Of a DNA stretch of 64,000 nt, positions 29,073 to 55,883 are shown piece by piece. A program made the position numbers and the translations under genes. Source of the DNA: Patescibacteria group bacterium (GTDB lineage Bacteria > Patescibacteriota > Dojkabacteria > GCA-002793355); NCBI GenBank assembly GCA_016860985.1, contig BOKM01000001.1:463462-527461 (forward strand). The letters run 5' to 3'. The notes under the pieces were generated by a model that saw only the letters and a program-made list of their open reading frames with translations, did no database searches and had not been told where the DNA came from. Each line of letters begins with the position of its first letter. Positions within the stretch are counted from its first letter, which is position 1.

Positions 29073-30425
29073 ATGTCAAACTTATCAGTAGACGAGCGAA
29101 TTGCTCTCATAAAATCCATCACCGAAAATGGTGGAGAGTTCATCGGCGAAGATGAACTAGAAAAGGTCCTTACCTCTGGAGAGCAACTCTATACGTACGA
29201 TGGGTTCGAACCCTCTGGCCAAATGCATATTGCACAAGGAATTATCCGCGCAATTAACGTTAATAAGATGATTGACGCTGGCTTCACTTTTAGAATGTGG
29301 GTAGCTGACTGGTTCGGTTATTTGAATAACAAAATGGGCGGCGATTTAGAGAAAATAAAAACTGTTGGTCGCTATTTTGTTGAGATTTGGAAAGCAAGCG
29401 GCATGAATCTTGATAAAACAGAATTCCTTTGGACCTCAGATTTTGTTGGCCAGCGATGGTACTGGGAATTGGTTATGAAGATAGCCAAGGCAGTTACCCT
29501 CAAACGTGCGCTTAGAACAACTGCAATTATGGGGCGGACCGAAAGTGACGATCTTTCCGCTGGTCAAATCTTTTATCCGTGCATGCAAATTGCTGACATA
29601 TTCGGTGTTATGAATGCGCAAGTTACACAACTTGGGCTTGATCAGCAAAAAGTAAACGTTCTTGCTCGAGAAATAGGAGAAGAATTAGGTTACTGGAAAC
29701 CCGTAATTGTGAGCCATGGTATGTTGCAAGGATTGCAAAAGCCAGAAGACAAAAAACGAACAGTTATCTCAACCAACAATTTTATGGCTCAAGAACTGAT
29801 TTACAAAGGGAGTAAAGCTTCTATTGTAGTTCAAGGAAGAGAAGAAAACTGCATAACCCTCAGTTTTGTTAATACAAAACAAGACGTACTACGAACCGAA
29901 GATGTGTCCACAGAAAAAAGTATAAAGTACTTCGATTTGCAGATTACATTACACACCAATGGCGAGCTCGAAATACTCGAGAATACTCCAGAAAGAATGA
30001 TATCCATGAAGATGAGTAAATCAAAACCAGACACCGCCATCTTTATGACCGACACCTCAGAAGAAGTTCAGCGCAAAATTATGAAGGCATACTGTCCAGA
30101 AGGAATAATCGACGACAATCCCGTACTTGATTATTGCAAACAAATCATTTTTAACGCTCACTATCTAAAACGCGAAAATCCACTTCTGAAAGACGGGGTG
30201 TTCGAGATTAAGCGAAAACCAGAGTTCGGTGGAGATATCACCTTTGCATCGTATCAGGTACTTGAAAAAGCATATGCAGATAAACAAGTGTACCCACTTG
30301 ATCTAAAGAATACCGTTATTGAGTACTTGAATGCATTATTGCAACCAGTACGAGATCATTTTGAAAACAATGCCGAGGCAAAAGCACTTCTTGAACAGGT
30401 GCGTAGCTTTCAAGTATCACGCTAA
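29073..30425 (+). CDS. tyrS: tyrosyl-tRNA synthetase, archaeal/eukaryal type
   Basis: Collinear with M. jannaschii TyrRS: 'DGFEPSGQMHIAQ' (cf. IGFEPSGKIHLGH), 'AGFTFRMWVADWFGYLN', 'FYPCMQIADI', the KMSKS loop 'MKMSKSK', 'KAYCPEG' and 'KRKPEFGGDITFASY'. An ~88-aa insertion precedes KMSKS. Confidence 0.9.
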   Translation: MSNLSVDERIALIKSITENGGEFIGEDELEKVLTSGEQLYTYDGFEPSGQMHIAQGIIRAINVNKMIDAGFTFRMWVADWFGYLNNKMGGDLEKIKTVGRYFVEIWKASGMNLDKTEFLWTSDFVGQRWYWELVMKIAKAVTLKRALRTTAIMGRTESDDLSAGQIFYPCMQIADIFGVMNAQVTQLGLDQQKVNVLAREIGEELGYWKPVIVSHGMLQGLQKPEDKKRTVISTNNFMAQELIYKGSKASIVVQGREENCITLSFVNTKQDVLRTEDVSTEKSIKYFDLQITLHTNGELEILENTPERMISMKMSKSKPDTAIFMTDTSEEVQRKIMKAYCPEGIIDDNPVLDYCKQIIFNAHYLKRENPLLKDGVFEIKRKPEFGGDITFASYQVLEKAYADKQVYPLDLKNTVIEYLNALLQPVRDHFENNAEAKALLEQVRSFQVSR

Positions 30426-38066: not shown

Positions 38067-39866
38067 CTATACTGCAAAGTTTCCAACTTCTGCCTCTGTT
38101 ACTTCTGCAAGATCTTCTCCTTTCATGGTAATTGAACATGTCTGCATACCTGCGTTAAACGACACCTGTTCGAGTTGCGCAATAGCGCTATCCATGTACA
38201 CTTTCATGCCCAAAAGATTGCCAAAAGGAGGGACTCCCCCAACTTTAATACCATAGGTCGCGAGAATGTTCTCTGGCTTCTCAAACTCTGCTTTTTCTCC
38301 AATGGCGGCAGTTACTGCTTCAAAGGATATTTTTTTATCGCCTGGAATAACTACCATAACCGGAGTATTGGTCTTTTTTCCAGAAAGAATAAGCGCCTTT
38401 GCTCCATTAGAGAGAGATGTTCCTCGAAGCGCTGCGGCCTCTTCACTTGTTCGCACAGCTTCGTGTTCAGAAAATTCGTATGCAACTGCACGGCTATCAA
38501 GTATTTTTTTAATTTTTGCCACAACTTCCTTATCAGAACCAAGCTTTTCCTTGATTCTATTTGCACCTGCGATTCTCTTGAGATCAGAAGGGAATAAGGT
38601 TGCCTCTCGGATATTTTGCAAGTTGAACAACTTCATGGTTAATCGCTCAAGTCCAAAAGAAAATCCTGCCTCTGAAGGCATTCCGTATTTAAAGGCTTGG
38701 AAATAGTGCTCGTAATACGCTTCAGACAAGCCTTGCTCTTTAAATCTTTCGAAAAGCTTTTCGTATTCGTGGATACGATGGGTACCTGAAAGCATTTCAA
38801 GACCTCTAAACTCAAGGTCAAAGCTAAGAGATTCCGAAGCTTCTTCTGGGTTATCCCATGTATAAAAGTTTTTGTTGCTTTTAAAGTTTACAACCCACAG
38901 AAAATCTGAACCTTTTTCCTCTAATGCCCACTTGCTAATCTCACGCTCGTCTTCCGGATCGAGGTCTAACTCCTCTCGTTCTGCTGACTTTCCGATTCTT
39001 CTTTCTATAATCTCCAAAGCTTCTCGAACTTTTATTTTCGGAAATCGACCATTTGGTAATTTGGGAAGCTCAACCCCATACAAGGCGAACACATCTTTTG
39101 AGGTCTCCACTACACCATCAACAATATGTCGAATAACATTTTCAGCAATCTGCATGGCCTCGTCGTAATTATCAATAAAGCCCATCTCCGCATCCATTTG
39201 CGTGAGTTCCATTATGTGGCGGGTAGTATTATGCTTCTCTGCTCGAAAAACGGGACCGACACAGAAAGCGCGTTCAAAGGCTGTAACCATAATTTGCTTA
39301 TAAACCTGTGGCGACTGCGCCAAATATGCTTTTCCTTCAAAGTAGTTCACTTCAAAAACACTTGCACCACTTTCAGACGGAGCACTCATAATTACCGGTG
39401 ACTTAAATTCGGTAAAACCTTGAGAGCGTAGAGATTCCGCAAACTTTTGTAAAATAACCGCTTGTACTTTAAAAATTGCTTGTTTTTTAAGATTTCTTAG
39501 CACCAAAGGTCTGTAATCCAACTCTGTGTCGATATTGACATCAATTGATTTTTTGTTGTACGAAACCGGTGGAACTTCCTTAATTGGGACCTTTATTTCG
39601 ACCGTAGGGTTAACTACTTCAACACCAATATCTGTTGAGTCAGTTTTTTTTACCGTTCCCACAACACGAACAACACTTCCGGGTTGCAACGACGCTAATT
39701 CTTTTAACGTATCTTTATTATCAACAACTACCTGAACTAAGCCACCTCGATCACGAACAATCAAGAAACCGAGTTTGCCTAACTCACGAAAGTTATGAAG
39801 CCACCCATCAAGGCGTACTTCTTTGCTCTCATATCCAGAGAGCTCTGTTGAAATAATACGTTCCAT
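38067..39866 (-). CDS. aspS: aspartyl-tRNA synthetase (archaeal type) fused to a C-terminal YbaK/ProX-type aminoacyl-tRNA deacylase domain
   Basis: Residues ~1-440 form a class II AspRS: N-terminal OB fold, 'AQSPQVYKQIMV' (QSPQ), motif 2 'GPVFRAEKHNTTRH' and motif 3 'GFSFGLERLTMKL'. Residues ~450-599 are collinear with E. coli YbaK: 'AYEFSEHE' (cf. IHTYEHD), 'GIKVGGVPPFG' (cf. GYLVGGISPLG) and 'VSFNAGMQTCSITMKGEDLAEV' (cf. [22 protein letters not shown]). A TATAAT lies 5 nt upstream of the ATG. Confidence 0.85.
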   Translation of the reverse strand: MERIISTELSGYESKEVRLDGWLHNFRELGKLGFLIVRDRGGLVQVVVDNKDTLKELASLQPGSVVRVVGTVKKTDSTDIGVEVVNPTVEIKVPIKEVPPVSYNKKSIDVNIDTELDYRPLVLRNLKKQAIFKVQAVILQKFAESLRSQGFTEFKSPVIMSAPSESGASVFEVNYFEGKAYLAQSPQVYKQIMVTAFERAFCVGPVFRAEKHNTTRHIMELTQMDAEMGFIDNYDEAMQIAENVIRHIVDGVVETSKDVFALYGVELPKLPNGRFPKIKVREALEIIERRIGKSAEREELDLDPEDEREISKWALEEKGSDFLWVVNFKSNKNFYTWDNPEEASESLSFDLEFRGLEMLSGTHRIHEYEKLFERFKEQGLSEAYYEHYFQAFKYGMPSEAGFSFGLERLTMKLFNLQNIREATLFPSDLKRIAGANRIKEKLGSDKEVVAKIKKILDSRAVAYEFSEHEAVRTSEEAAALRGTSLSNGAKALILSGKKTNTPVMVVIPGDKKISFEAVTAAIGEKAEFEKPENILATYGIKVGGVPPFGNLLGMKVYMDSAIAQLEQVSFNAGMQTCSITMKGEDLAEVTEAEVGNFAV

Positions 39867-50852: not shown

Positions 50853-52673
50853 CTAGATTCCTTTTAACTCATCGACGGTTGTTGCCTGTTCCGCCTTCTT
50901 TTCCCTGAATTTTTTAAACCTTGGAAAGCGAAGTGCATAACCTGAAGAATGAAGGGGGCTTTTGGTTATTTCGTCTGCTTCGACTTCTACTACAAGCGAG
51001 GGCAATAAATAAACATCTGGAGTGAGCGACTTAGGAATAACTACATTATCCAGTTTTCTATCGGTCTTTACCTCGTCACAGGCTGCTTTAATGATTTTCC
51101 ATTGCTCGTGTGTAACCCCCGTGCCTATTTTTGTTACGGTTAGGTACTCATCTGTCTCTCGGTTATAAACAGCAGCAAGCAGTGCACCGATACCAAATTG
51201 GGCGAGTTTTCCTTCTCCGCGATAATAACCTACCAAAACGATATCAACCGTATCTGCGAGTTCTTTTTTCATCGCTTTTTTATATTTTAACCAATCAAAG
51301 TTACGCGTTCCTGGAGTATAAATAGATGACGTATCCTTAAAAATGACTCCCTCTAAACCCTCTGCCACATATTCAAGGAAAAGTTTTTCCGCCTCAGCAA
51401 CATCTTTTGGATAATGAATTGGAGTTTTAACAATTGTACGTTGAACCTCCTGATTTTCGTCGAGAAAAGTTAAGAGTTCTTTTCGAACTGAAAGTGATTT
51501 GTCCATCAAATTTTCATTATTTACCAAAAGAATATCAAAAGAGAAGACTTTAACAGGAACTTCGTTTGCTGCACCTTCTACCCCGTGTTTCCGCTTGCGA
51601 GTCATTGTTTGTTGGAAAGGAAGATACTCCTGAACGATATCATTGTAACCGATGACTTCACCATCGAGCACAATGGATTCAACAGAGACACCGTGCTTTT
51701 TTTCATACTGCAGTGGAAGCTTCTTTGCTGCTTCTACGACTTCGGGGAACATTTCGGTCATATTTTCGAGATTGCGGGAAAAAAGCATAACTGAGTAATC
51801 CTCTTTTTCATTCTGTTCTGGTTGAGAAAAAAGGCTAAGATTCGCTTCTTTTGACTTATCTTCGTGTGAAAAGTATGGTTGCCAAACTCTTTCTGCATAG
51901 ACGTTTTCAAGAACCTTTTCTTTGAATACGTGGAGTTGTATTCGCAAACCGTCATATTTTGGCTCTTCAATTGGCTCTGGAATTCTTTTGTAGATAGACT
52001 CGATTGAATCTTCACGTTCAACCAGCTTTGCTGAGACAGGAATTCCTGGTGAAAATACTGATCGTTCCGGGGCTGCTTCGCCATACTTTAGAGAGAGATA
52101 CACTGTATGCCCAATATCTGAACAATTCGCAAACAGCTTTTTTAGCTCGTCATTTTTTGTCCCCTGTAATGCGCCGAGTGCCTCAAGTATGGTTCTTTCG
52201 CTTGCTCCAAGCCGAAGTTTGCTGTTCACAATTCGCAGTGTATACTTGCCCGCTAGAGGTGAGCATCTTTTTAGCAGATTAATTAGTAATTCTTGTTTCT
52301 TTGCCTGTGAGCCTGTCCCTTTGGTTTTTGCAACATCCCACAAGAGAGAGTAGTAGTCGAGTAGGGTAAGGTCAGTCTCTTGTTTTGGTGCGTAGGCCTC
52401 CCATACTGAACCGATATCACCATATGTGGTTAAATCTTGCACAACATCTTTACCCAAGAGTGTTTCGACAACAGTTCGCAACGTTTTATCAGACAATTGA
52501 AACTCAACCGCAATAAATTCAGGGACAATTCTTCCTATTATCAAATATGCCGTAATTGCACCTTCTTCAGGGGTTGCCTGACGGAAATAATCAGTTAAAA
52601 GGGCCTGCATTTCGAGTCTTTTTGGTGTTTTCTCAATTGCCGAAAATAATTCCATTACTGTTGTCAGTTGCAT
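50853..52673 (-). CDS. ATP-dependent DNA ligase (archaeal/eukaryal LigB-type)
   Basis: Adenylation motif I 'EPKYDGLRIQLHV' (KxDG), downstream OB-domain motifs and a length of ~606 aa. Start chosen at an internal Met. Confidence 0.85.
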   Translation of the reverse strand: MQLTTVMELFSAIEKTPKRLEMQALLTDYFRQATPEEGAITAYLIIGRIVPEFIAVEFQLSDKTLRTVVETLLGKDVVQDLTTYGDIGSVWEAYAPKQETDLTLLDYYSLLWDVAKTKGTGSQAKKQELLINLLKRCSPLAGKYTLRIVNSKLRLGASERTILEALGALQGTKNDELKKLFANCSDIGHTVYLSLKYGEAAPERSVFSPGIPVSAKLVEREDSIESIYKRIPEPIEEPKYDGLRIQLHVFKEKVLENVYAERVWQPYFSHEDKSKEANLSLFSQPEQNEKEDYSVMLFSRNLENMTEMFPEVVEAAKKLPLQYEKKHGVSVESIVLDGEVIGYNDIVQEYLPFQQTMTRKRKHGVEGAANEVPVKVFSFDILLVNNENLMDKSLSVRKELLTFLDENQEVQRTIVKTPIHYPKDVAEAEKLFLEYVAEGLEGVIFKDTSSIYTPGTRNFDWLKYKKAMKKELADTVDIVLVGYYRGEGKLAQFGIGALLAAVYNRETDEYLTVTKIGTGVTHEQWKIIKAACDEVKTDRKLDNVVIPKSLTPDVYLLPSLVVEVEADEITKSPLHSSGYALRFPRFKKFREKKAEQATTVDELKGI

Positions 52674-52749
52674 ACAGGATTGTACCACTAGCAGCCGAAA
52701 TTGCCGTAGTATTTTACTTACACACTGCCACGTTATATAATTACTCAGT

Positions 52750-52946
52750 ACGCATTGACCCAGCAATCACTGGTGAGCGTCAGGAAGAAATGCACATTAG
52801 CATTGTAGAACCTGTCGGCGACCTCCGAACCAACTGGTTAAGCCATTTAGGCTAAGGGATACAAAAACGTATCTGAACGAGGGTGGTACCGTGAGCTAAA
52901 TCACTCACCCCTCTATAGGGATTTGCATTAATTTACTATAGAGGCC
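52750..52946 (+). promoter_or_regulatory. T-box leader (translational type) upstream of ileS
   Basis: Conserved T-box sequence 'AACGAGGGTGGTACCGTGAG' at ~52876-52895 (consensus AGGGUGGNACCGCG with the UGGN bulge). Antisequestrator arms are GAGGG/CCCTC and GTGAG/CTCAC. A mutually exclusive 9-bp helix CCTCTATAG (52909-52918) / CTATAGAGG (52935-52943) sequesters the SD 'AGAGG', 7 nt before the ATG at 52947. A candidate AUC specifier lies in a CAAUCA loop at ~52764-52769. Confidence 0.55.
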
Positions 52947-55883
52947 ATGGCACACAACGAATTTACACTCCCGAATGTCCGCAATTTTTACACTGACGTC
53001 GAACAACCTATTCTATCGTTTTGGAAAGAGAACAAAATCTTCGAAAAATCAGTAGATCAGCGCAGTGACAAGGATCGATTTGTATTCTACGACGGTCCTC
53101 CCTTTGTTACTGGTTTACCCCATTATGGGCACTTGCTTGCGAGCGTACTCAAAGACATCGTCCCTCGTTACCAAACAATGAAAGGCAAGAAAGTCGAGAG
53201 ACTCTGGGGTTGGGATTGTCACGGCATTCCAATTGAAGAGATGGTCGAAAGAAAATACAAAACAAAGAACCGAAGAGAAATCGAATCACGGGTTGGCATC
53301 AAAGAGTTTATAGAAGCCTGTGCGTCATATGTCACCGATGTTTCGGGAGAATGGGAGTGGTATATCGACAGAATCGCGCGCTGGGTCGATATGAAAAAAC
53401 CATACAGAACAATGGACCTTTCCTACATGGAAACAGTGATGTGGGTGTTTAAGCAATTCTACGAAAAAGGGTTAGTCTATAAAGGAAAACGCGTTTCTTT
53501 GTACTGCACCCGCTGTGGTACGCCTCTCTCAAACTTTGAAATCGCTATGGACAACTCGTACCGAGACCTTGAAGATCCTTCAGTATTTGTGAAATTCCCC
53601 GTCAAAGATGAAAAGAATACCTACATACTCGCATGGACAACAACACCATGGACTCTTCCGGCAAACAGTGCGTTGGTAGTTAATCAAGAGGCAGATTATG
53701 TAAAAGTAAAATCCGGCACCGATTCTATGTACCTTGCAAAAGCTCTCGTAGAAAAAGTCTTTAAAGATTTAGAATACACGGTAGAAGACGAAGTAAAAGG
53801 AGCAGCATTGATTGGGCTACATTACGAACCATTATTCAACTACTTTACTGCAGGGGAGCATGATTATCAGGTTTATCACGCAGATTTTGTCAGCATGGAA
53901 GAAGGTACAGGAATAATCCACATGGCTCCTGGATTTGGTGAGGACGACACTGCGCTCGGAAAGCAAATCGGGTTATCCATGCACGAAACAATCGACGACG
54001 AAGGAAGGCTTATACCCGAAGTTACTGATTATGCAGGCAAGTACTTTAAAGAAGCCGATCCATTTATCTCCGAAGACTTAACAAAGCGAGGTCTTATGCT
54101 AAAAGCGGAGCGAATCGTTCACAGTTATCCTATCTGTCACCGATGCAAAACACCTCTTGTTTATAAAGCACAGGACTCTTGGTATGTGAATATCCAGCAA
54201 ATTAAGGACCAACTCTACAAAAACAACGAAAATATCAACTGGATTCCAGAACATATCAAACACGGAAGATTTGAAGATGCGATTAAAACCTTCCCAGATT
54301 GGGGTATTTCAAGAACTCGTTATTGGGCAACTCCGATGCCAATTTGGGAATGTGACTCCTGTGACCACCAGGAAGTGTTAGGCTCAGTAGCAGAAATTGA
54401 AGAGCGATCAGGCAAAAAAGTTACAGACCTTCATCGTCCATACATAGATGAGCATACGTACGCTTGTAAAAAGTGTGAGAAAGGAACAATGAAGCGTGTC
54501 GCAGAGGTTGTTGATAGCTGGTTGGAATCAGCCTCCATGCCGTTTGCGCAATTCCACTATCCCTTTGAAAACAAAGAAAAGTTTGAAGCCAACTTCCCCG
54601 GTGATTTTATTACCGAATACGTGGGGCAAACGAGAGCTTGGTTTAACGTGATGCACGTGGTTTCAACTATACTTTTCGGTACAAATGCCTTCAACAATGT
54701 AATCTGCACAGGCGTTATCAAAGGAACCGATGGCCAAAAAATGAGTAAAAGCCTTGGCAACTACCCAGACCCTCGAGGTGTTATCGAAAAATACGGTGGC
54801 GACGCATTCAGACTCTATATTGCAGGAAGCGTATTACCATTAGGTGAGGACTTGAACGTTTCTGAAGAATCAATATCTGCCCCCGGAAAAGAGATTCTCA
54901 TGCCACTAATGAATACATACAAGTACTTTGCGTTATACGCCAATCAACATACCTTTGCTTTTGACCAAAATGCAAAATCGGAGCATGTACTCGATAGGTG
55001 GATTCTTGCACGTGTTAATTCTGTTGTTAGAACAATAGATTCAATGATTGCCGGATATACACTTCCAAAGGCAATTGCAGAGATTAAGCCCCTTGTAGAC
55101 GACATTTCCACTTGGTACATCCGAAGATCCCGAGATCGTTTTGTTGAGGGTGATAACAATGCATTGCAAACGTTATATCAAGTACTTCTTCTTGTGGTTA
55201 CCGCAATAGCACCAATCTCACCGTTTATAGCAGAGTATCTTTACCAAGAGTTAAAACGTGCGTTACCTACAGACCTTCAACAGGAATCAGTGCACCTACT
55301 CCTTTTCCCGTCACTTGCAGAGCAAACTGCAGAAGAACAATCAGTCCTAGCAACAATGGAACTTGCACGAAAGGCTGCATCGCTTGGGCAAAGTATTCGA
55401 GTAGAAAAAGCAATTGCACTCAAACAACCGCTTAGCCAAATGTTAGTTAATACAAAGGAGAAGCTCACAGCAGAATACCTAGACCTTTTATCAGAAGAGC
55501 TTAATGTTCAGGAGACACTCGCCGTGACCGAATTAACAGAAAAAGAGTTTTTGGCGGTTAAGAAAGATCAAGGAATAGAAGTCGGCTTAAATCTCGAAAT
55601 TACACCAGAACTTGCAGAAAAAGGGTTACTTCGCGAAGTGACAAGAGCGATCCAAGCCTCAAGAAAGAATGCTTCTCTCCAAATCGGGCAACATGCAAAG
55701 GTGCGAATTTTCACAGAAAGTACCGCAATCAAGGAACTTGTTGCAAAATACGGCACAGAGCTAAAGCAGGGAACACTCCTCGAAAGCATCGATACCGTTC
55801 AGCAACCACTTGGTGAAAACGCATTTACAGCAGCTGTAGGGCCACAGAAAGAGCAATTATCCATTGAAGTCACGCCACTTTAG
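52947..55883 (+). CDS. ileS: isoleucyl-tRNA synthetase, type 2 (archaeal/eukaryal-like)
   Basis: 'FYDGPPFVTGLPHYGHLLAS' (HIGH), 'KMSKSLGN', a CP1 editing region and a length of 978 aa without a bacterial C-terminal Zn domain. Confidence 0.95.
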   Translation: MAHNEFTLPNVRNFYTDVEQPILSFWKENKIFEKSVDQRSDKDRFVFYDGPPFVTGLPHYGHLLASVLKDIVPRYQTMKGKKVERLWGWDCHGIPIEEMVERKYKTKNRREIESRVGIKEFIEACASYVTDVSGEWEWYIDRIARWVDMKKPYRTMDLSYMETVMWVFKQFYEKGLVYKGKRVSLYCTRCGTPLSNFEIAMDNSYRDLEDPSVFVKFPVKDEKNTYILAWTTTPWTLPANSALVVNQEADYVKVKSGTDSMYLAKALVEKVFKDLEYTVEDEVKGAALIGLHYEPLFNYFTAGEHDYQVYHADFVSMEEGTGIIHMAPGFGEDDTALGKQIGLSMHETIDDEGRLIPEVTDYAGKYFKEADPFISEDLTKRGLMLKAERIVHSYPICHRCKTPLVYKAQDSWYVNIQQIKDQLYKNNENINWIPEHIKHGRFEDAIKTFPDWGISRTRYWATPMPIWECDSCDHQEVLGSVAEIEERSGKKVTDLHRPYIDEHTYACKKCEKGTMKRVAEVVDSWLESASMPFAQFHYPFENKEKFEANFPGDFITEYVGQTRAWFNVMHVVSTILFGTNAFNNVICTGVIKGTDGQKMSKSLGNYPDPRGVIEKYGGDAFRLYIAGSVLPLGEDLNVSEESISAPGKEILMPLMNTYKYFALYANQHTFAFDQNAKSEHVLDRWILARVNSVVRTIDSMIAGYTLPKAIAEIKPLVDDISTWYIRRSRDRFVEGDNNALQTLYQVLLLVVTAIAPISPFIAEYLYQELKRALPTDLQQESVHLLLFPSLAEQTAEEQSVLATMELARKAASLGQSIRVEKAIALKQPLSQMLVNTKEKLTAEYLDLLSEELNVQETLAVTELTEKEFLAVKKDQGIEVGLNLEITPELAEKGLLREVTRAIQASRKNASLQIGQHAKVRIFTESTAIKELVAKYGTELKQGTLLESIDTVQQPLGENAFTAAVGPQKEQLSIEVTPL

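What the first reader, a model, noticed from the sequence alone, without database searches (positions are those of the whole stretch)
38067..39866. AspRS fused to a YbaK/ProX-type trans-editing deacylase domain
One uninterrupted 599-aa ORF encodes two collinear units. The first is an archaeal-type class II AspRS (QSPQ, FRAE motif 2, GLERL motif 3). The second is a ~150-aa C-terminal domain that aligns along its length with E. coli YbaK, including the GxxVGGxxPxG substrate loop. Freestanding YbaK/ProX deacylases and ProRS INS domains clear mischarged tRNAPro. I do not know of a proofreading domain of this family attached to AspRS. In an organism that probably uses a non-discriminating AspRS (no AsnRS in view), it could police Asp-tRNA(Asn) mischarging or a different mischarged species.
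Basis: partly seen in the sequence, partly recalled or inferred. Interest (0 to 1): 0.65.

Follow-up and report, generated by a model that had tools for sequence, protein, structure and literature searches.

The report
AspRS with built-in tRNA-editing domain
This gene joins the enzyme that loads aspartate onto tRNA to a proofreading domain never reported on that enzyme, and the same join recurs in many ultra-small bacteria and archaea, so it probably serves an unrecognised quality-control step in translation.

Summary
Window 38067-39866 (minus strand) is one uninterrupted 599-aa ORF. It holds an archaeal-type class IIb AspRS (OB fold 17-90, catalytic core 112-427), a 13-residue linker, and a full-length PF04073 aminoacyl-tRNA editing domain (445-599).

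It is not a frameshift. 56 of the best 120 homologues have the same architecture, at 92% down to 43% identity, mostly Candidatus Dojkabacteria (CPR). The editing residues are invariant across 47 aligned fused proteins: K490, the G543-GVP-P547 loop and H468.

The domain belongs to the INS superfamily. It is closest to E. coli YeaK/ProXp-ST1 and to the uncharacterised 3OP6, not to YbaK proper.

The main new finding is that the fusion is recurrent:
- The same domain family sits on the C-terminus of bacterial-type (GAD-containing) AspRS in more than 100 Woesearchaeota/Nanoarchaeota (DPANN) clusters.
- It sits on a bacterial-type AspRS on another metagenomic contig.
- It is a separate gene 2 nt downstream of aspS in a split version.

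DPANN carriers encode a complete GatCAB nearby.

Most likely this is an AspRS-coupled post-transfer deacylase. The substrate is unknown: a Ser/Thr-like error or leaked Asp-tRNA(Asn). I found no published description. I rate it a new variant of a known kind.

The parts
38067..39866 (-). Whole aspS-edit ORF (599 aa plus stop codon)
   Evidence: the ORF listing; translation and coordinates re-checked
39597..39818 (-). N-terminal OB-fold anticodon-binding domain (residues 17-90). It includes His24, which occupies the position of T. kodakarensis W26.
   Evidence: Pfam PF01336, E 1.2e-14; alignment
38586..39533 (-). Class IIb catalytic core (residues 112-427). It has no GAD insertion, so it is archaeal/eukaryal type.
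   Evidence: Pfam PF00152, E 9.8e-76; nearest solved chains are T. thermophilus AspRS2 1n9w (E 3e-91) and 3nel/1b8a (TMt 0.88)
39306..39317 (-). QSPQ aspartate-recognition motif (residues 184-187)
   Evidence: Q184, S185 and Q187 are invariant in 47 fused homologues
39237..39248 (-). Motif 2 FRAE (residues 207-210)
   Evidence: F207, R208, A209 and E210 are invariant
38640..38654 (-). Motif 3 GLERL (residues 405-409)
   Evidence: G405, E407 and R408 are invariant
38535..38573 (-). Short linker IAGANRIKEKLGS (residues 432-444). It follows FPSDLKR, the position where unfused AspRS ends (...FPRDxxRxxP*).
   Evidence: The 10-residue blocks spanning the linker have mean pLDDT 75 and 63 in the AF2 model. 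The split-gene homologue L064 ends at FPRDVKRTTP*.
38070..38534 (-). C-terminal INS-superfamily, YeaK/ProXp-ST1-like aminoacyl-tRNA editing domain (residues 445-599)
   Evidence: Pfam PF04073, residues 468-588, E 2.7e-26. AF2 model of the domain alone has pLDDT 93.3. All 37 significant Foldseek PDB hits are INS-superfamily members, best TM 0.87. hhalign to YeaK gives E 1.6e-27.
38397..38399 (-). Lys490, the superfamily's conserved catalytic lysine
   Evidence: Invariant in 47 fused homologues and in 226 free-standing relatives. It aligns with the Lys of YeaK, YbaK and 3OP6.
38226..38240 (-). G543-G-V-P-P547, the GXXXP loop of the INS superfamily
   Evidence: G543 and P547 are invariant; G544 and P546 are conserved at 90% or more
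38463..38465 (-). His468, invariant in the family (HEAV motif, shared with YeaK THEAV)

Best explanation
The ORF encodes one bifunctional polypeptide. The first part is an archaeal-type class IIb aspartyl-tRNA synthetase. Its C-terminus continues, after a 13-residue linker, into a catalytically competent aminoacyl-tRNA deacylase of the INS (YbaK/ProX) superfamily, from the branch closest to E. coli YeaK/ProXp-ST1.

Proposed mechanism, step by step:
1. AspRS charges tRNA(Asp), and possibly tRNA(Asn). This is shown by homology only.
2. The 3' end of a wrongly acylated product, either still on the enzyme or rebound through the AspRS anticodon-binding domain, enters the appended domain. This step is inferred.
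3. The invariant Lys490 and the GXXXP loop position the ester for hydrolysis. This is inferred from the family's conserved catalytic residues.

The domain is therefore a post-transfer editing module dedicated to the tRNAs that AspRS handles. The acyl group it removes is not established. By nearest characterised homologue, a small polar non-cognate residue (Ser/Thr-like) is the first candidate. Asp-tRNA(Asn) that has escaped GatCAB is the second.

My rough probabilities: architecture real, about 0.97. Domain is an active deacylase, about 0.75. Function specifically coupled to AspRS, about 0.55-0.6. Ser/Thr-type substrate, about 0.3.
For: Architecture.

Conservation: 47 fused homologues down to 43% identity were aligned. 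K490, G543, P547, G549, H468 and F570 are invariant. The editing domain is as conserved as the OB domain (0.65 vs 0.65 mean column identity).

Fold: the domain-alone model has pLDDT 93.3. Foldseek TM is 0.87 to 1wdv, 0.83 to ProX 2cx5 and 0.81 to YbaK, and only INS-superfamily hits are significant.

Family placement, using profile A2:
- YeaK 106.6 bits and 3OP6 104.5 bits.
- YbaK 56.9, ProXp-x 43.7 and ProXp-ala 25.8 bits.
- hhalign to YeaK E 1.6e-27, against YbaK 8.7e-15.
- YeaK nests inside the family in an NJ tree.

Coupling to AspRS comes from independent associations:
(a) Many fusions to archaeal-type AspRS in CPR bacteria.
(b) Fusions to bacterial-type, GAD-containing AspRS. P0284 scores 815 bits on NF001750. 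107 of the 120 best clusters have this architecture, and those that carry a source name are called Woesearchaeota/Nanoarchaeota.
(c) A bacterial-type fusion, P0244, on a separate metagenomic contig, whose C-domain branches elsewhere in the tree.
(d) A split version in which aspS ends at its normal stop and the editing gene starts 2 nt later (L064).

Reviews state that ProXp-ST1/ST2 clear Ser/Thr-tRNAs made by several synthetases, including the class IIb LysRS (PMC7373986; PMC11295145).
Against: - No activity data exist for this domain or for its closest relatives; 3OP6 is uncharacterised.
- Identity to YeaK is only about 27%.
- The AspRS synthetic site keeps every canonical Asp-binding residue (QSPQ, K190, R364, motifs 2 and 3). 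Nothing suggests that it is unusually error-prone with amino acids, and AspRS is not among the synthetases known to need editing.
- Most members of the domain family are free-standing. Of the four free-standing homologue loci examined, three share TIM-PGK-edit-HIT-RecJ synteny and none has a synthetase within 5 kb. They share the same pocket residues as the fused forms, so the activity may be generic rather than AspRS-specific.
- Fused and unfused AspRS interleave in the tree. Unfused Dojkabacteria loci have no editing gene within 6 kb.
- The relative geometry of the two active sites could not be measured. I had only pLDDT and pTM (0.72) and no coordinates.
Confidence: 0.55

Rival explanations
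1. Generic trans-editing factor that is merely tethered. The domain has the same broad activity as its free-standing relatives, for example Ser/Thr- or Ala-tRNA clearance for ThrRS, AlaRS, ProRS and others. Fusion to AspRS would only provide co-expression, stability or a general tRNA-rich location, with no special relation to AspRS products.
For: - Free-standing proteins of about 160 aa at 40-50% identity dominate the family.
- Their gene neighbourhoods contain no synthetase.
- Catalytic and pocket residues are the same in fused and free forms.
- Fused and unfused AspRS interleave phylogenetically, which suggests that fusion is easily gained or lost.
- Class II synthetases release product quickly and appended INS-like domains are expected to edit mainly in trans (PMC11286415).
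Against: - Every synthetase partner I found was AspRS. The 10 non-standard architectures scanned with Pfam, out of the 150 best representatives, gave AspRS or AspRS fragments, Peptidase_S11, tandem copies and one unassigned N-terminal extension. No other synthetase appeared.
- The fusion arose on two deeply different AspRS scaffolds, in Bacteria and in Archaea.
- An aspS|edit operon with a 2-nt spacer exists.
- Random tethering would not be expected to hit the same partner repeatedly.
Confidence: 0.22
2. Asp-tRNA(Asn) safety valve. The AspRS is non-discriminating, and the appended domain hydrolyses Asp-tRNA(Asn) that is released without being amidated by GatCAB. It would recognise tRNA(Asn) acceptor-stem features, as other INS members read N73 and the 1:72 pair. 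Asp would thereby be kept out of Asn codons.
For: - NCBIfam places the core in the aspartate--tRNA(Asn) ligase equivalog.
- Its nearest solved relative is the non-discriminating T. thermophilus AspRS2 of the transamidosome.
- DPANN genomes with the equivalent fusion carry GatC-GatA-GatB 4.5 kb from aspS-edit.
- Leaked Asp-tRNA(Asn) is documented to cause misincorporation and toxicity despite rejection by EF-Tu (PMC3367201).
- INS members discriminate tRNAs through the acceptor stem (PMC11295145).
- C-terminal fusion of AspRS to a transamidosome partner has a precedent in the AspRS-GatC model NF009460.
Against: - The pocket residues are those of the free-standing family and of YeaK, which acts on Ser/Thr. 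No fusion-specific basic residue that could bind a carboxylate was found.
- CPR AspRS lack the L1-loop proline seen in ND-AspRS that sit beside gatCAB. tRNA(Asn) charging is therefore not assured.
- Hydrolysing the obligatory intermediate would be costly.
- GatCAB and AsnRS content of the window's own genome is unknown.
Confidence: 0.18
3. Non-hydrolytic module. The domain binds the aminoacylated CCA end or the tRNA acceptor arm without cleaving it. It would act as a tRNA-affinity or hand-off element, for instance holding Asp-tRNA(Asn) for GatCAB.
For: - Other appended domains on editing factors mainly raise tRNA affinity, for example the plant ProXp-ala CTD (PMC11295145).
- GatCAB lies close by in DPANN carriers.
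Against: The catalytic Lys and the GXXXP loop are invariant over 47 CPR fusions and conserved at 97% or more in 107 DPANN fusions, together with H468, FNAG and other pocket residues. That pattern is expected for an active enzyme.
Confidence: 0.04
4. Assembly or annotation artefact. Two adjacent genes (aspS and a free-standing editing gene) would have been joined by a sequencing frameshift or a lost stop codon in this assembly only.
For: A genuinely split arrangement exists in one relative (L064).
Against: The identical collinear architecture appears in dozens of independent assemblies from NCBI, JGI, ENA and Logan. These include a complete genome (CP129470.1) and a 659-kb single-contig assembly (CAZGEO010000001.1). 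Linker length is conserved.
Confidence: 0.01

Closest known systems
ProXp-ST1 (E. coli YeaK), a free-standing INS-superfamily Ser/Thr-tRNA deacylase
   Same: Closest characterised homologue of the C-terminal domain: hhalign E 1.6e-27 and 106.6 bits on the family profile. It shares the HEAV, R-G, QGAKAL, G-x-x-P-P-F and FNAG motifs. YeaK nests within the family in the NJ tree.
   Different: YeaK is a single-domain protein that acts in trans with broad tRNA specificity. Here the domain is covalently attached to AspRS. Identity is only about 27%, and activity on Ser/Thr is untested.
ProXp-ala-ProRS fusion of protists (Plasmodium, Trypanosoma) and the INS domain of bacterial ProRS
   Same: An INS-superfamily deacylase built into a class II synthetase polypeptide, joined by a flexible linker, and proofreading that synthetase's products (PMC11286415).
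   Different: The partner there is ProRS and the substrate is Ala-tRNAPro. The domain is N-terminal (protists) or inserted between motifs 2 and 3 (bacteria). Here the partner is AspRS, the position is C-terminal, and the subfamily differs: ProXp-ala and INS are the weakest profile matches, at 26-30 bits.
PDB 3OP6 (lpg1207, Legionella pneumophila), deposited as an oligonucleotide-binding protein
   Same: Best solved-structure sequence match to the family: 105 bits, E 2e-29. Same fold.
   Different: It is free-standing, no function has been determined, and it falls outside the CPR/YeaK cluster in the NJ tree.
Thermus thermophilus AspRS2 (1N9W; transamidosome 3KFU), a non-discriminating archaeal-type AspRS
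   Same: Closest solved relative of residues 1-432 (E 3e-91). Same OB plus class IIb core without a GAD domain.
   Different: AspRS2 ends at the canonical C-terminus and has no editing domain. It has the L1-loop APGG proline, which the window protein lacks.
Bifunctional AspRS-GatC (NCBIfam NF009460)
   Same: A curated precedent for a functional partner fused to the C-terminus of AspRS.
   Different: The appended module there is GatC, an amidotransferase subunit, not a deacylase.

Membership tests
Archaeal/eukaryal-type class IIb AspRS (NCBIfam NF003483 / TIGR00458) | Whole-protein score above the curated cut-off | tested here: met
   NF003483 scores 463.9 bits against 353. TIGR00458 scores 370.6 against 368.4.
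Archaeal/eukaryal-type class IIb AspRS (NCBIfam NF003483 / TIGR00458) | N-terminal OB anticodon-binding domain plus class II core with motifs 2 and 3 and the QSPQ Asp-recognition motif | tested here: met
   Pfam PF01336 and PF00152. QSPQ at 184, FRAE at 207, GLERL at 405. All are invariant in 47 homologues.
Archaeal/eukaryal-type class IIb AspRS (NCBIfam NF003483 / TIGR00458) | No GAD insertion domain, which distinguishes it from bacterial-type AspRS | tested here: met
   No PF02938 hit. The DPANN fusions do have GAD.
Non-discriminating AspRS (functional class) | Aspartylation of tRNA(Asn). Sequence proxies recalled from the literature are His at the T. kodakarensis W26 position and Pro in the L1 loop. 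| tested here: inconclusive
   His24 is present. The L1 loop is STDIG, without the AP-GG proline found in Thermus, Deinococcales and Clostridiales enzymes next to gatCAB. The activity itself cannot be tested here.
INS (YbaK/ProX) superfamily, Pfam PF04073 | Profile match above the gathering score over the full domain | tested here: met
   92.5 bits against 25.5, covering profile positions 1-122 of 123.
INS (YbaK/ProX) superfamily, Pfam PF04073 | Strictly conserved catalytic lysine and GXXXP loop (PMC11286415) | tested here: met
   K490 and G543-GVP-P547 are invariant or at least 90% conserved.
INS (YbaK/ProX) superfamily, Pfam PF04073 | YbaK-like alpha/beta fold | tested here: met
   AF2 pLDDT 93.3. 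Foldseek TM 0.87 (1wdv), 0.83 (2cx5), 0.81 (1dbu). All 37 hits with E<=1e-3 are INS-superfamily proteins.
INS (YbaK/ProX) superfamily, Pfam PF04073 | Aminoacyl-tRNA deacylase activity | not testable with these tools
   Requires biochemical assays.
YbaK proper (Cys-tRNAPro deacylase; TIGR00011 / NF007951) | Score above the equivalog cut-off | tested here: not met
   TIGR00011 scores 68 bits against 153.25. NF007951 scores 20.6 against 243.
ProXp-ST1 (YeaK) family | Closer to YeaK than to any other characterised INS subfamily | tested here: met
   Profile bits: YeaK 106.6, YbaK 56.9, ProXp-x 43.7, ProXp-ala 25.8. hhalign E 1.6e-27 against 8.7e-15. The NJ tree nests YeaK within the family.
ProXp-ST1 (YeaK) family | [quoted passage not shown] | not testable with these tools
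   There is only about 27% identity to YeaK, and no curated model for this subfamily was available in NCBIfam or Pfam.
ProXp-ala family | Family-specific conserved residues (Cc H23, K50, R80, H130; PMC11286415) and a strong profile similarity | tested here: not met
   Weakest of all references: 25.8-29.8 bits and PDB 5vxb E 6.7e-5. Residue-by-residue mapping was not done.
ProXp-7 (MCP3) family | Eukaryote-only cluster with an N-terminal helical extension (PMC11286415) | tested here: not met
   The carriers are CPR bacteria and DPANN archaea, and the domain is C-terminal to AspRS.

The most novel reading that the evidence does not exclude
The appended domain is a hydrolytic safety valve of the tRNA-dependent asparagine pathway. 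It would be a deacylase that recognises tRNA(Asn) identity and destroys Asp-tRNA(Asn) that escapes GatCAB. That would make it the first editing activity directed at the deliberate 'mischarging' product of a non-discriminating synthetase. It would have evolved convergently on archaeal-type AspRS in CPR bacteria and on bacterial-type AspRS in DPANN archaea.
Probability: 0.18. Interest if true: 0.85.

Novelty: new variant of a known kind. Interest (0 to 1): 0.72.

Why it matters
AspRS is treated as a synthetase that needs no proofreading. A 2020 review counts editing in 10 of 23 synthetases (PMC7373986). A 2024 review counts seven synthetase families with editing domains, and describes INS-superfamily members other than the ProRS INS domain as single-domain proteins (PMC11295145). 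That AspRS is not among these families rests on my own knowledge.

A conserved, catalytically intact editing domain welded to AspRS, on two unrelated AspRS scaffolds and in both CPR bacteria and DPANN archaea, implies a fidelity problem at Asp or Asn codons that has not been recognised. It may be specific to ultra-small, host-dependent cells with skewed amino-acid pools, or to cells that rely on the ND-AspRS/GatCAB route.

The fusion also gives a functional handle on an uncharacterised branch of the INS superfamily: the 3OP6 and CPR YeaK-like proteins. It supplies a ready-made Rosetta-stone prediction that deacylation assays can test directly.

Tried and rejected
- **Frameshift or assembly artefact:** rejected by conservation across independent assemblies.
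- **YbaK orthology:** rejected. ProXp-ala, INS and ProXp-7 membership: rejected.
- **GatCAB, AsnRS or ProRS in the window:** Pfam scans of the 30 largest ORFs found none. tblastn with GatA, GatB and AsnS seeds against the window and all loci also found none there or in Dojkabacteria loci. The S. aureus GatB seed was recalled from memory and validated against PDB 2df4. The GatA seed was also recalled and was not separately validated. AsnS was read from the E. coli K-12 record. The seeds hit only Clostridiales aspS-gatCAB loci and the DPANN locus L063. Whole-genome content of carriers such as CP129470.1 could not be retrieved with these tools.
- **ND versus D sequence signatures:** no difference between fused and unfused CPR enzymes, so inconclusive.
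- **Editing gene next to unfused aspS in Dojkabacteria:** none within 6 kb.
- **Synthetase genes next to free-standing homologues:** none.
- **Fusion-specific pocket substitutions:** only a clade-specific E-F-E-K-P segment was found. The DPANN fusions do not share it, so it is more likely a docking surface than a specificity change.
- **Fold search against afdb50:** the library was unavailable.
- **Literature:** ten full-text searches found no description of an AspRS-INS fusion. Kuzmishin Nagy 2020, Bacusmo 2018 and Liu 2015 were not held, so the ProXp-8/-9 definitions could not be checked.
- **Distance between the two active sites:** not measurable, because model coordinates are not exposed.
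Full report
**1. What is in the sequence**

Window positions 38067-39866 hold a single 599-codon ORF on the minus strand, with an ATG start and no internal stop.

Pfam finds three collinear units:
- an OB-fold anticodon-binding domain, residues 17-90, E 1.2e-14;
- a class II D/K/N catalytic core, residues 112-427, E 9.8e-76;
- a complete 'Aminoacyl-tRNA editing domain' PF04073, residues 468-588, covering profile positions 1-122 of 123, E 2.7e-26.

NCBIfam places the first 432 residues above the curated cut-offs of the archaeal-type 'aspartate--tRNA(Asn) ligase' models: NF003483 at 464 bits against 353, and TIGR00458 at 370.6 against 368.4.

The AspRS part ends with FPSDLKR (residues 425-431). 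This is the position where unfused relatives terminate (...FPRDxxRxxP*). It is followed by a 13-residue linker and then by the first helix of the editing domain at residue 445.

**2. It is not an artefact**

Among the 120 best database matches, 56 are 560 aa or longer with the same three Pfam domains. Identity runs from 92% down to 43%. They come from NCBI, JGI, ENA and Logan assemblies, mostly named Candidatus Dojkabacteria (WS6, CPR/Patescibacteria), with one Doudnabacteria.

A scan of GTDB species genomes found the fused gene in a complete Dojkabacteria chromosome (CP129470.1, 889 kb) and in a 659-kb single-contig assembly. It found an unfused gene in another complete Dojkabacteria genome (AP026679.1).

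In an alignment of 47 fused proteins, the editing domain is as conserved as the OB domain. H468, K490, G543, P547, G549 and F570 are invariant.

Local synteny is conserved with a 75%-identical relative: NUDIX | aspS-edit | RodZ-like | PIF1-type helicase ... UvrB | class Ic synthetase.

**3. What the C-terminal domain is**

A model of the domain alone is confident (pLDDT 93.3). All 37 significant Foldseek hits in the PDB are INS-superfamily proteins: 1wdv TM 0.87, T. thermophilus ProX 2cx5 TM 0.83, YbaK 1dbu TM 0.81, followed by ProRS INS domains and ProXp-ala.

The two features used to define the superfamily are present and conserved. These are a strictly conserved lysine and a GXXXP loop (PMC11286415), here K490 and G543-GVP-P547.

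It is not a YbaK orthologue: TIGR00011 scores 68 bits against a cut-off of 153.

Its nearest relatives are free-standing proteins of about 160 aa, at 40-50% identity. A profile of that family (A2) scores as follows:

| Reference | Bits |
|---|---|
| E. coli YeaK (ProXp-ST1) | 106.6 |
| 3OP6 (Legionella lpg1207, uncharacterised) | 104.5 |
| YbaK | 56.9 |
| 1wdv | 47.5 |
| ProXp-x 2cx5 | 43.7 |
| ProXp-ala | 25.8 |

hhalign gives E 1.6e-27 to YeaK and 8.7e-15 to YbaK. In a distance tree YeaK nests inside the family, whereas 3OP6, YbaK and 1wdv fall outside.

ProXp-ST1 is described as a Ser/Thr-tRNA deacylase with broad tRNA specificity. It acts on errors of ThrRS, AlaRS, IleRS, ValRS and the class IIb LysRS (PMC11295145; PMC7373986).

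**4. The fusion is recurrent and specific to AspRS**

An exhaustive HMMER search of 1.84 billion cluster representatives with the C-domain found 2283 relatives. I scanned ten proteins with non-standard lengths against Pfam:
- seven were AspRS or AspRS fragments;
- two were Peptidase_S11 fusions;
- one was a triple tandem of the domain.

No other synthetase appeared.

Two of the AspRS fusions (P0244 at 748 aa and P0284 at 744 aa) are bacterial-type AspRS with the GAD insertion domain. They score 706 and 815 bits on NF001750 (cut-off 443), followed by the same C-terminal editing domain.

Searching with P0284 showed that this architecture accounts for 107 of the 120 best clusters, from 100% to 51% identity. 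Where a source gives a name, it is Candidatus Woesearchaeota or Nanoarchaeota, that is DPANN archaea. Their editing domains score 130-168 bits on the CPR family profile. They keep the His, Lys, GXXXP and FNAG motifs.

In the C-domain tree, the archaeal-type-fused domains form one main clade. P0284, P0244 and two further archaeal-type fusions (P0260, P0377) branch separately among free-standing proteins. This suggests several independent fusion events, although the tree is a crude NJ tree.

One contig (L064) carries the split state. An archaeal-type aspS ends at its normal stop (…FPRDVKRTTP*). Two nucleotides later comes the ATG of a 162-aa editing gene that belongs to the main fused clade.

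The same partner has therefore been captured on two deeply divergent AspRS scaffolds, in two domains of life, and an operonic intermediate exists. This is the strongest available argument that the domain's function is tied to AspRS.

**5. Context bearing on mechanism**

The window contains no tRNA genes. The 30 largest ORFs I scanned include no GatCAB, AsnRS or ProRS. It does encode a class Ic synthetase, IleRS, UvrABC, Mur ligases and other genes. The window is 64 kb, whereas the related single-contig or complete assemblies are 0.66-0.89 Mb, so absence here says little.

In DPANN carriers, a complete GatC-(PPIase)-GatA-GatB cluster lies 4.5 kb from aspS-edit (L065 and L066). GatC-GatA lie 3 kb from it in L063 (GatA confirmed by tblastn). 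The indirect Asn pathway uses ND-AspRS with GatCAB, whereas archaea make Gln-tRNA with GatDE (PMC2943598 abstract). These fused enzymes therefore probably supply Asp-tRNA(Asn).

That argues against the idea that the domain converts an ND enzyme into a discriminating one in cells without GatCAB. It leaves open a 'safety valve' role against leaked Asp-tRNA(Asn), which is known to be misincorporated and toxic (PMC3367201).

For the window's own enzyme, the ND proxies conflict. These proxies are recalled from the literature and were not verified here. His24 is present at the T. kodakarensis W26 position. The L1-loop proline of Thermus, Deinococcales and Clostridiales ND enzymes is absent from all CPR sequences, fused or unfused.

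The synthetic site keeps every canonical Asp-binding residue. Nothing in the sequence suggests relaxed amino-acid specificity.

Catalytic and pocket residues of the editing domain are identical in fused and free-standing relatives and largely in YeaK. Only a clade-specific E-F-E-K-P segment distinguishes the main CPR fused clade. The split-gene form also has it, but the DPANN fusions do not. I read this segment as a possible docking surface rather than a specificity change.

The full-length model is good (pLDDT 87.8, pTM 0.72). The linker region is the least confident part outside two active-site loops. No solved chain spans both modules. The geometry between the two active sites could not be measured.

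**6. Best explanation and rivals**

The explanation I commit to is an AspRS-coupled post-transfer editing module. It would be an active YeaK-like deacylase that hydrolyses a wrongly acylated tRNA(Asp) or tRNA(Asn). The first-choice substrate is a small polar non-cognate residue, by homology. The second choice is escaped Asp-tRNA(Asn). Overall confidence is about 0.55.

Shown here:
- the architecture;
- its conservation;
- family placement;
- intact catalytic motifs;
- recurrent AspRS association;
- co-occurrence with GatCAB in DPANN.

Inferred:
- hydrolytic activity;
- coupling to AspRS-bound tRNA;
- substrate identity.

Rivals:
- a generic trans-editing factor merely tethered to AspRS (0.22);
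- the Asp-tRNA(Asn) safety valve as the primary role (0.18);
- a non-hydrolytic tRNA-binding or hand-off module (0.04);
- an artefact (0.01).

**7. Comparison with what is known, and novelty**

Appended INS-like domains are known on ProRS: the bacterial INS insertion and the N-terminal ProXp-ala of protists (PMC11286415). AspRS is known to be fused to GatC (NCBIfam NF009460).

[quoted passage not shown] That AspRS is not among them rests on my own knowledge. Ten full-text searches found no description of an AspRS-INS fusion.

The proteins themselves are in public databases, named only 'aspartate--tRNA(Asn) ligase' or 'aspartate--tRNA ligase'.

I therefore rate it a new variant of a known kind. 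The parts are familiar. The combination is unreported and evolutionarily recurrent, and it implies an unrecognised fidelity checkpoint in CPR and DPANN translation.

Noticed in passing
L005/L006 (NCBI GCA_964525295.1, contig CAZGEO010000001.1, about 558.7-578.6 kb): A block of about 5.1 kb [NUDIX - 551-aa unknown - HhH-GPD glycosylase - aspS-edit] occurs twice in tandem, giving two identical 599-aa fused genes. It is either a real duplication or an assembly artefact.
   Followed up: no
P0319 (486 aa), P0370 (505 aa); L062 12309-13391: The same YeaK-like editing domain is fused N-terminally to a Peptidase_S11 D-Ala-D-Ala carboxypeptidase in two clusters. In L062 an S11 gene directly follows the bacterial-type aspS-edit gene. 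A cytoplasmic tRNA deacylase joined to a cell-wall peptidase is unexplained.
   Followed up: partly
P0247/P0391 (448 aa), P0364 (491 aa), P0339 (3719 aa): There are proteins made of three tandem copies of the editing domain. There is also a giant protein with 23 partial matches to residues 20-70 of the domain.
   Followed up: no
P0318 (499 aa): OB domain, then only the first ~195 profile positions of the class II core, then the editing domain. This is either an AspRS lacking the motif-3 half or a mis-assembly.
   Followed up: no
window 39597-39818 (residues 17-90) and the homologues: All CPR AspRS, fused and unfused, keep His at the T. kodakarensis W26 position. They replace the 'AP-GG' L1-loop proline with T-D/E-L/I-G. 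That proline is found in Thermus, Deinococcales and Clostridiales ND-AspRS, and the Clostridiales genes lie next to gatA/gatB. How or whether these enzymes read tRNA(Asn) is unclear.
   Followed up: partly
L065 16737-20389; L066 7470-11122: The Woesearchaeota-type contigs carry GatC, a cyclophilin-type PPIase, GatA and GatB in a row. The PPIase is inserted between gatC and gatA.
   Followed up: no
window 29073-30425 (+), 52947-55883 (+), 50853-52766 (-): The window also encodes three notable proteins: a 450-aa class Ic (Trp/Tyr) synthetase matched in two stretches, an IleRS with the DUF5915 C-terminal domain, and an ATP-dependent (archaeal/eukaryal-type) DNA ligase. Dojkabacteria are reported to carry archaeal/eukaryal-type TyrRS (PMC5370408).
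   Followed up: no
window 1-64000: ARAGORN finds no tRNA or tmRNA gene anywhere in the 64-kb window.
   Followed up: no
window residues 524-531 (38274-38297) and L064 P0125: The main CPR fused clade, including the split-gene version, has a conserved acidic E-F-E-K-P segment where free-standing relatives, YeaK, YbaK and 3OP6 have x-F/L-A-x. The DPANN fusions keep Ala. It may be a docking surface for the archaeal-type AspRS core.
   Followed up: partly
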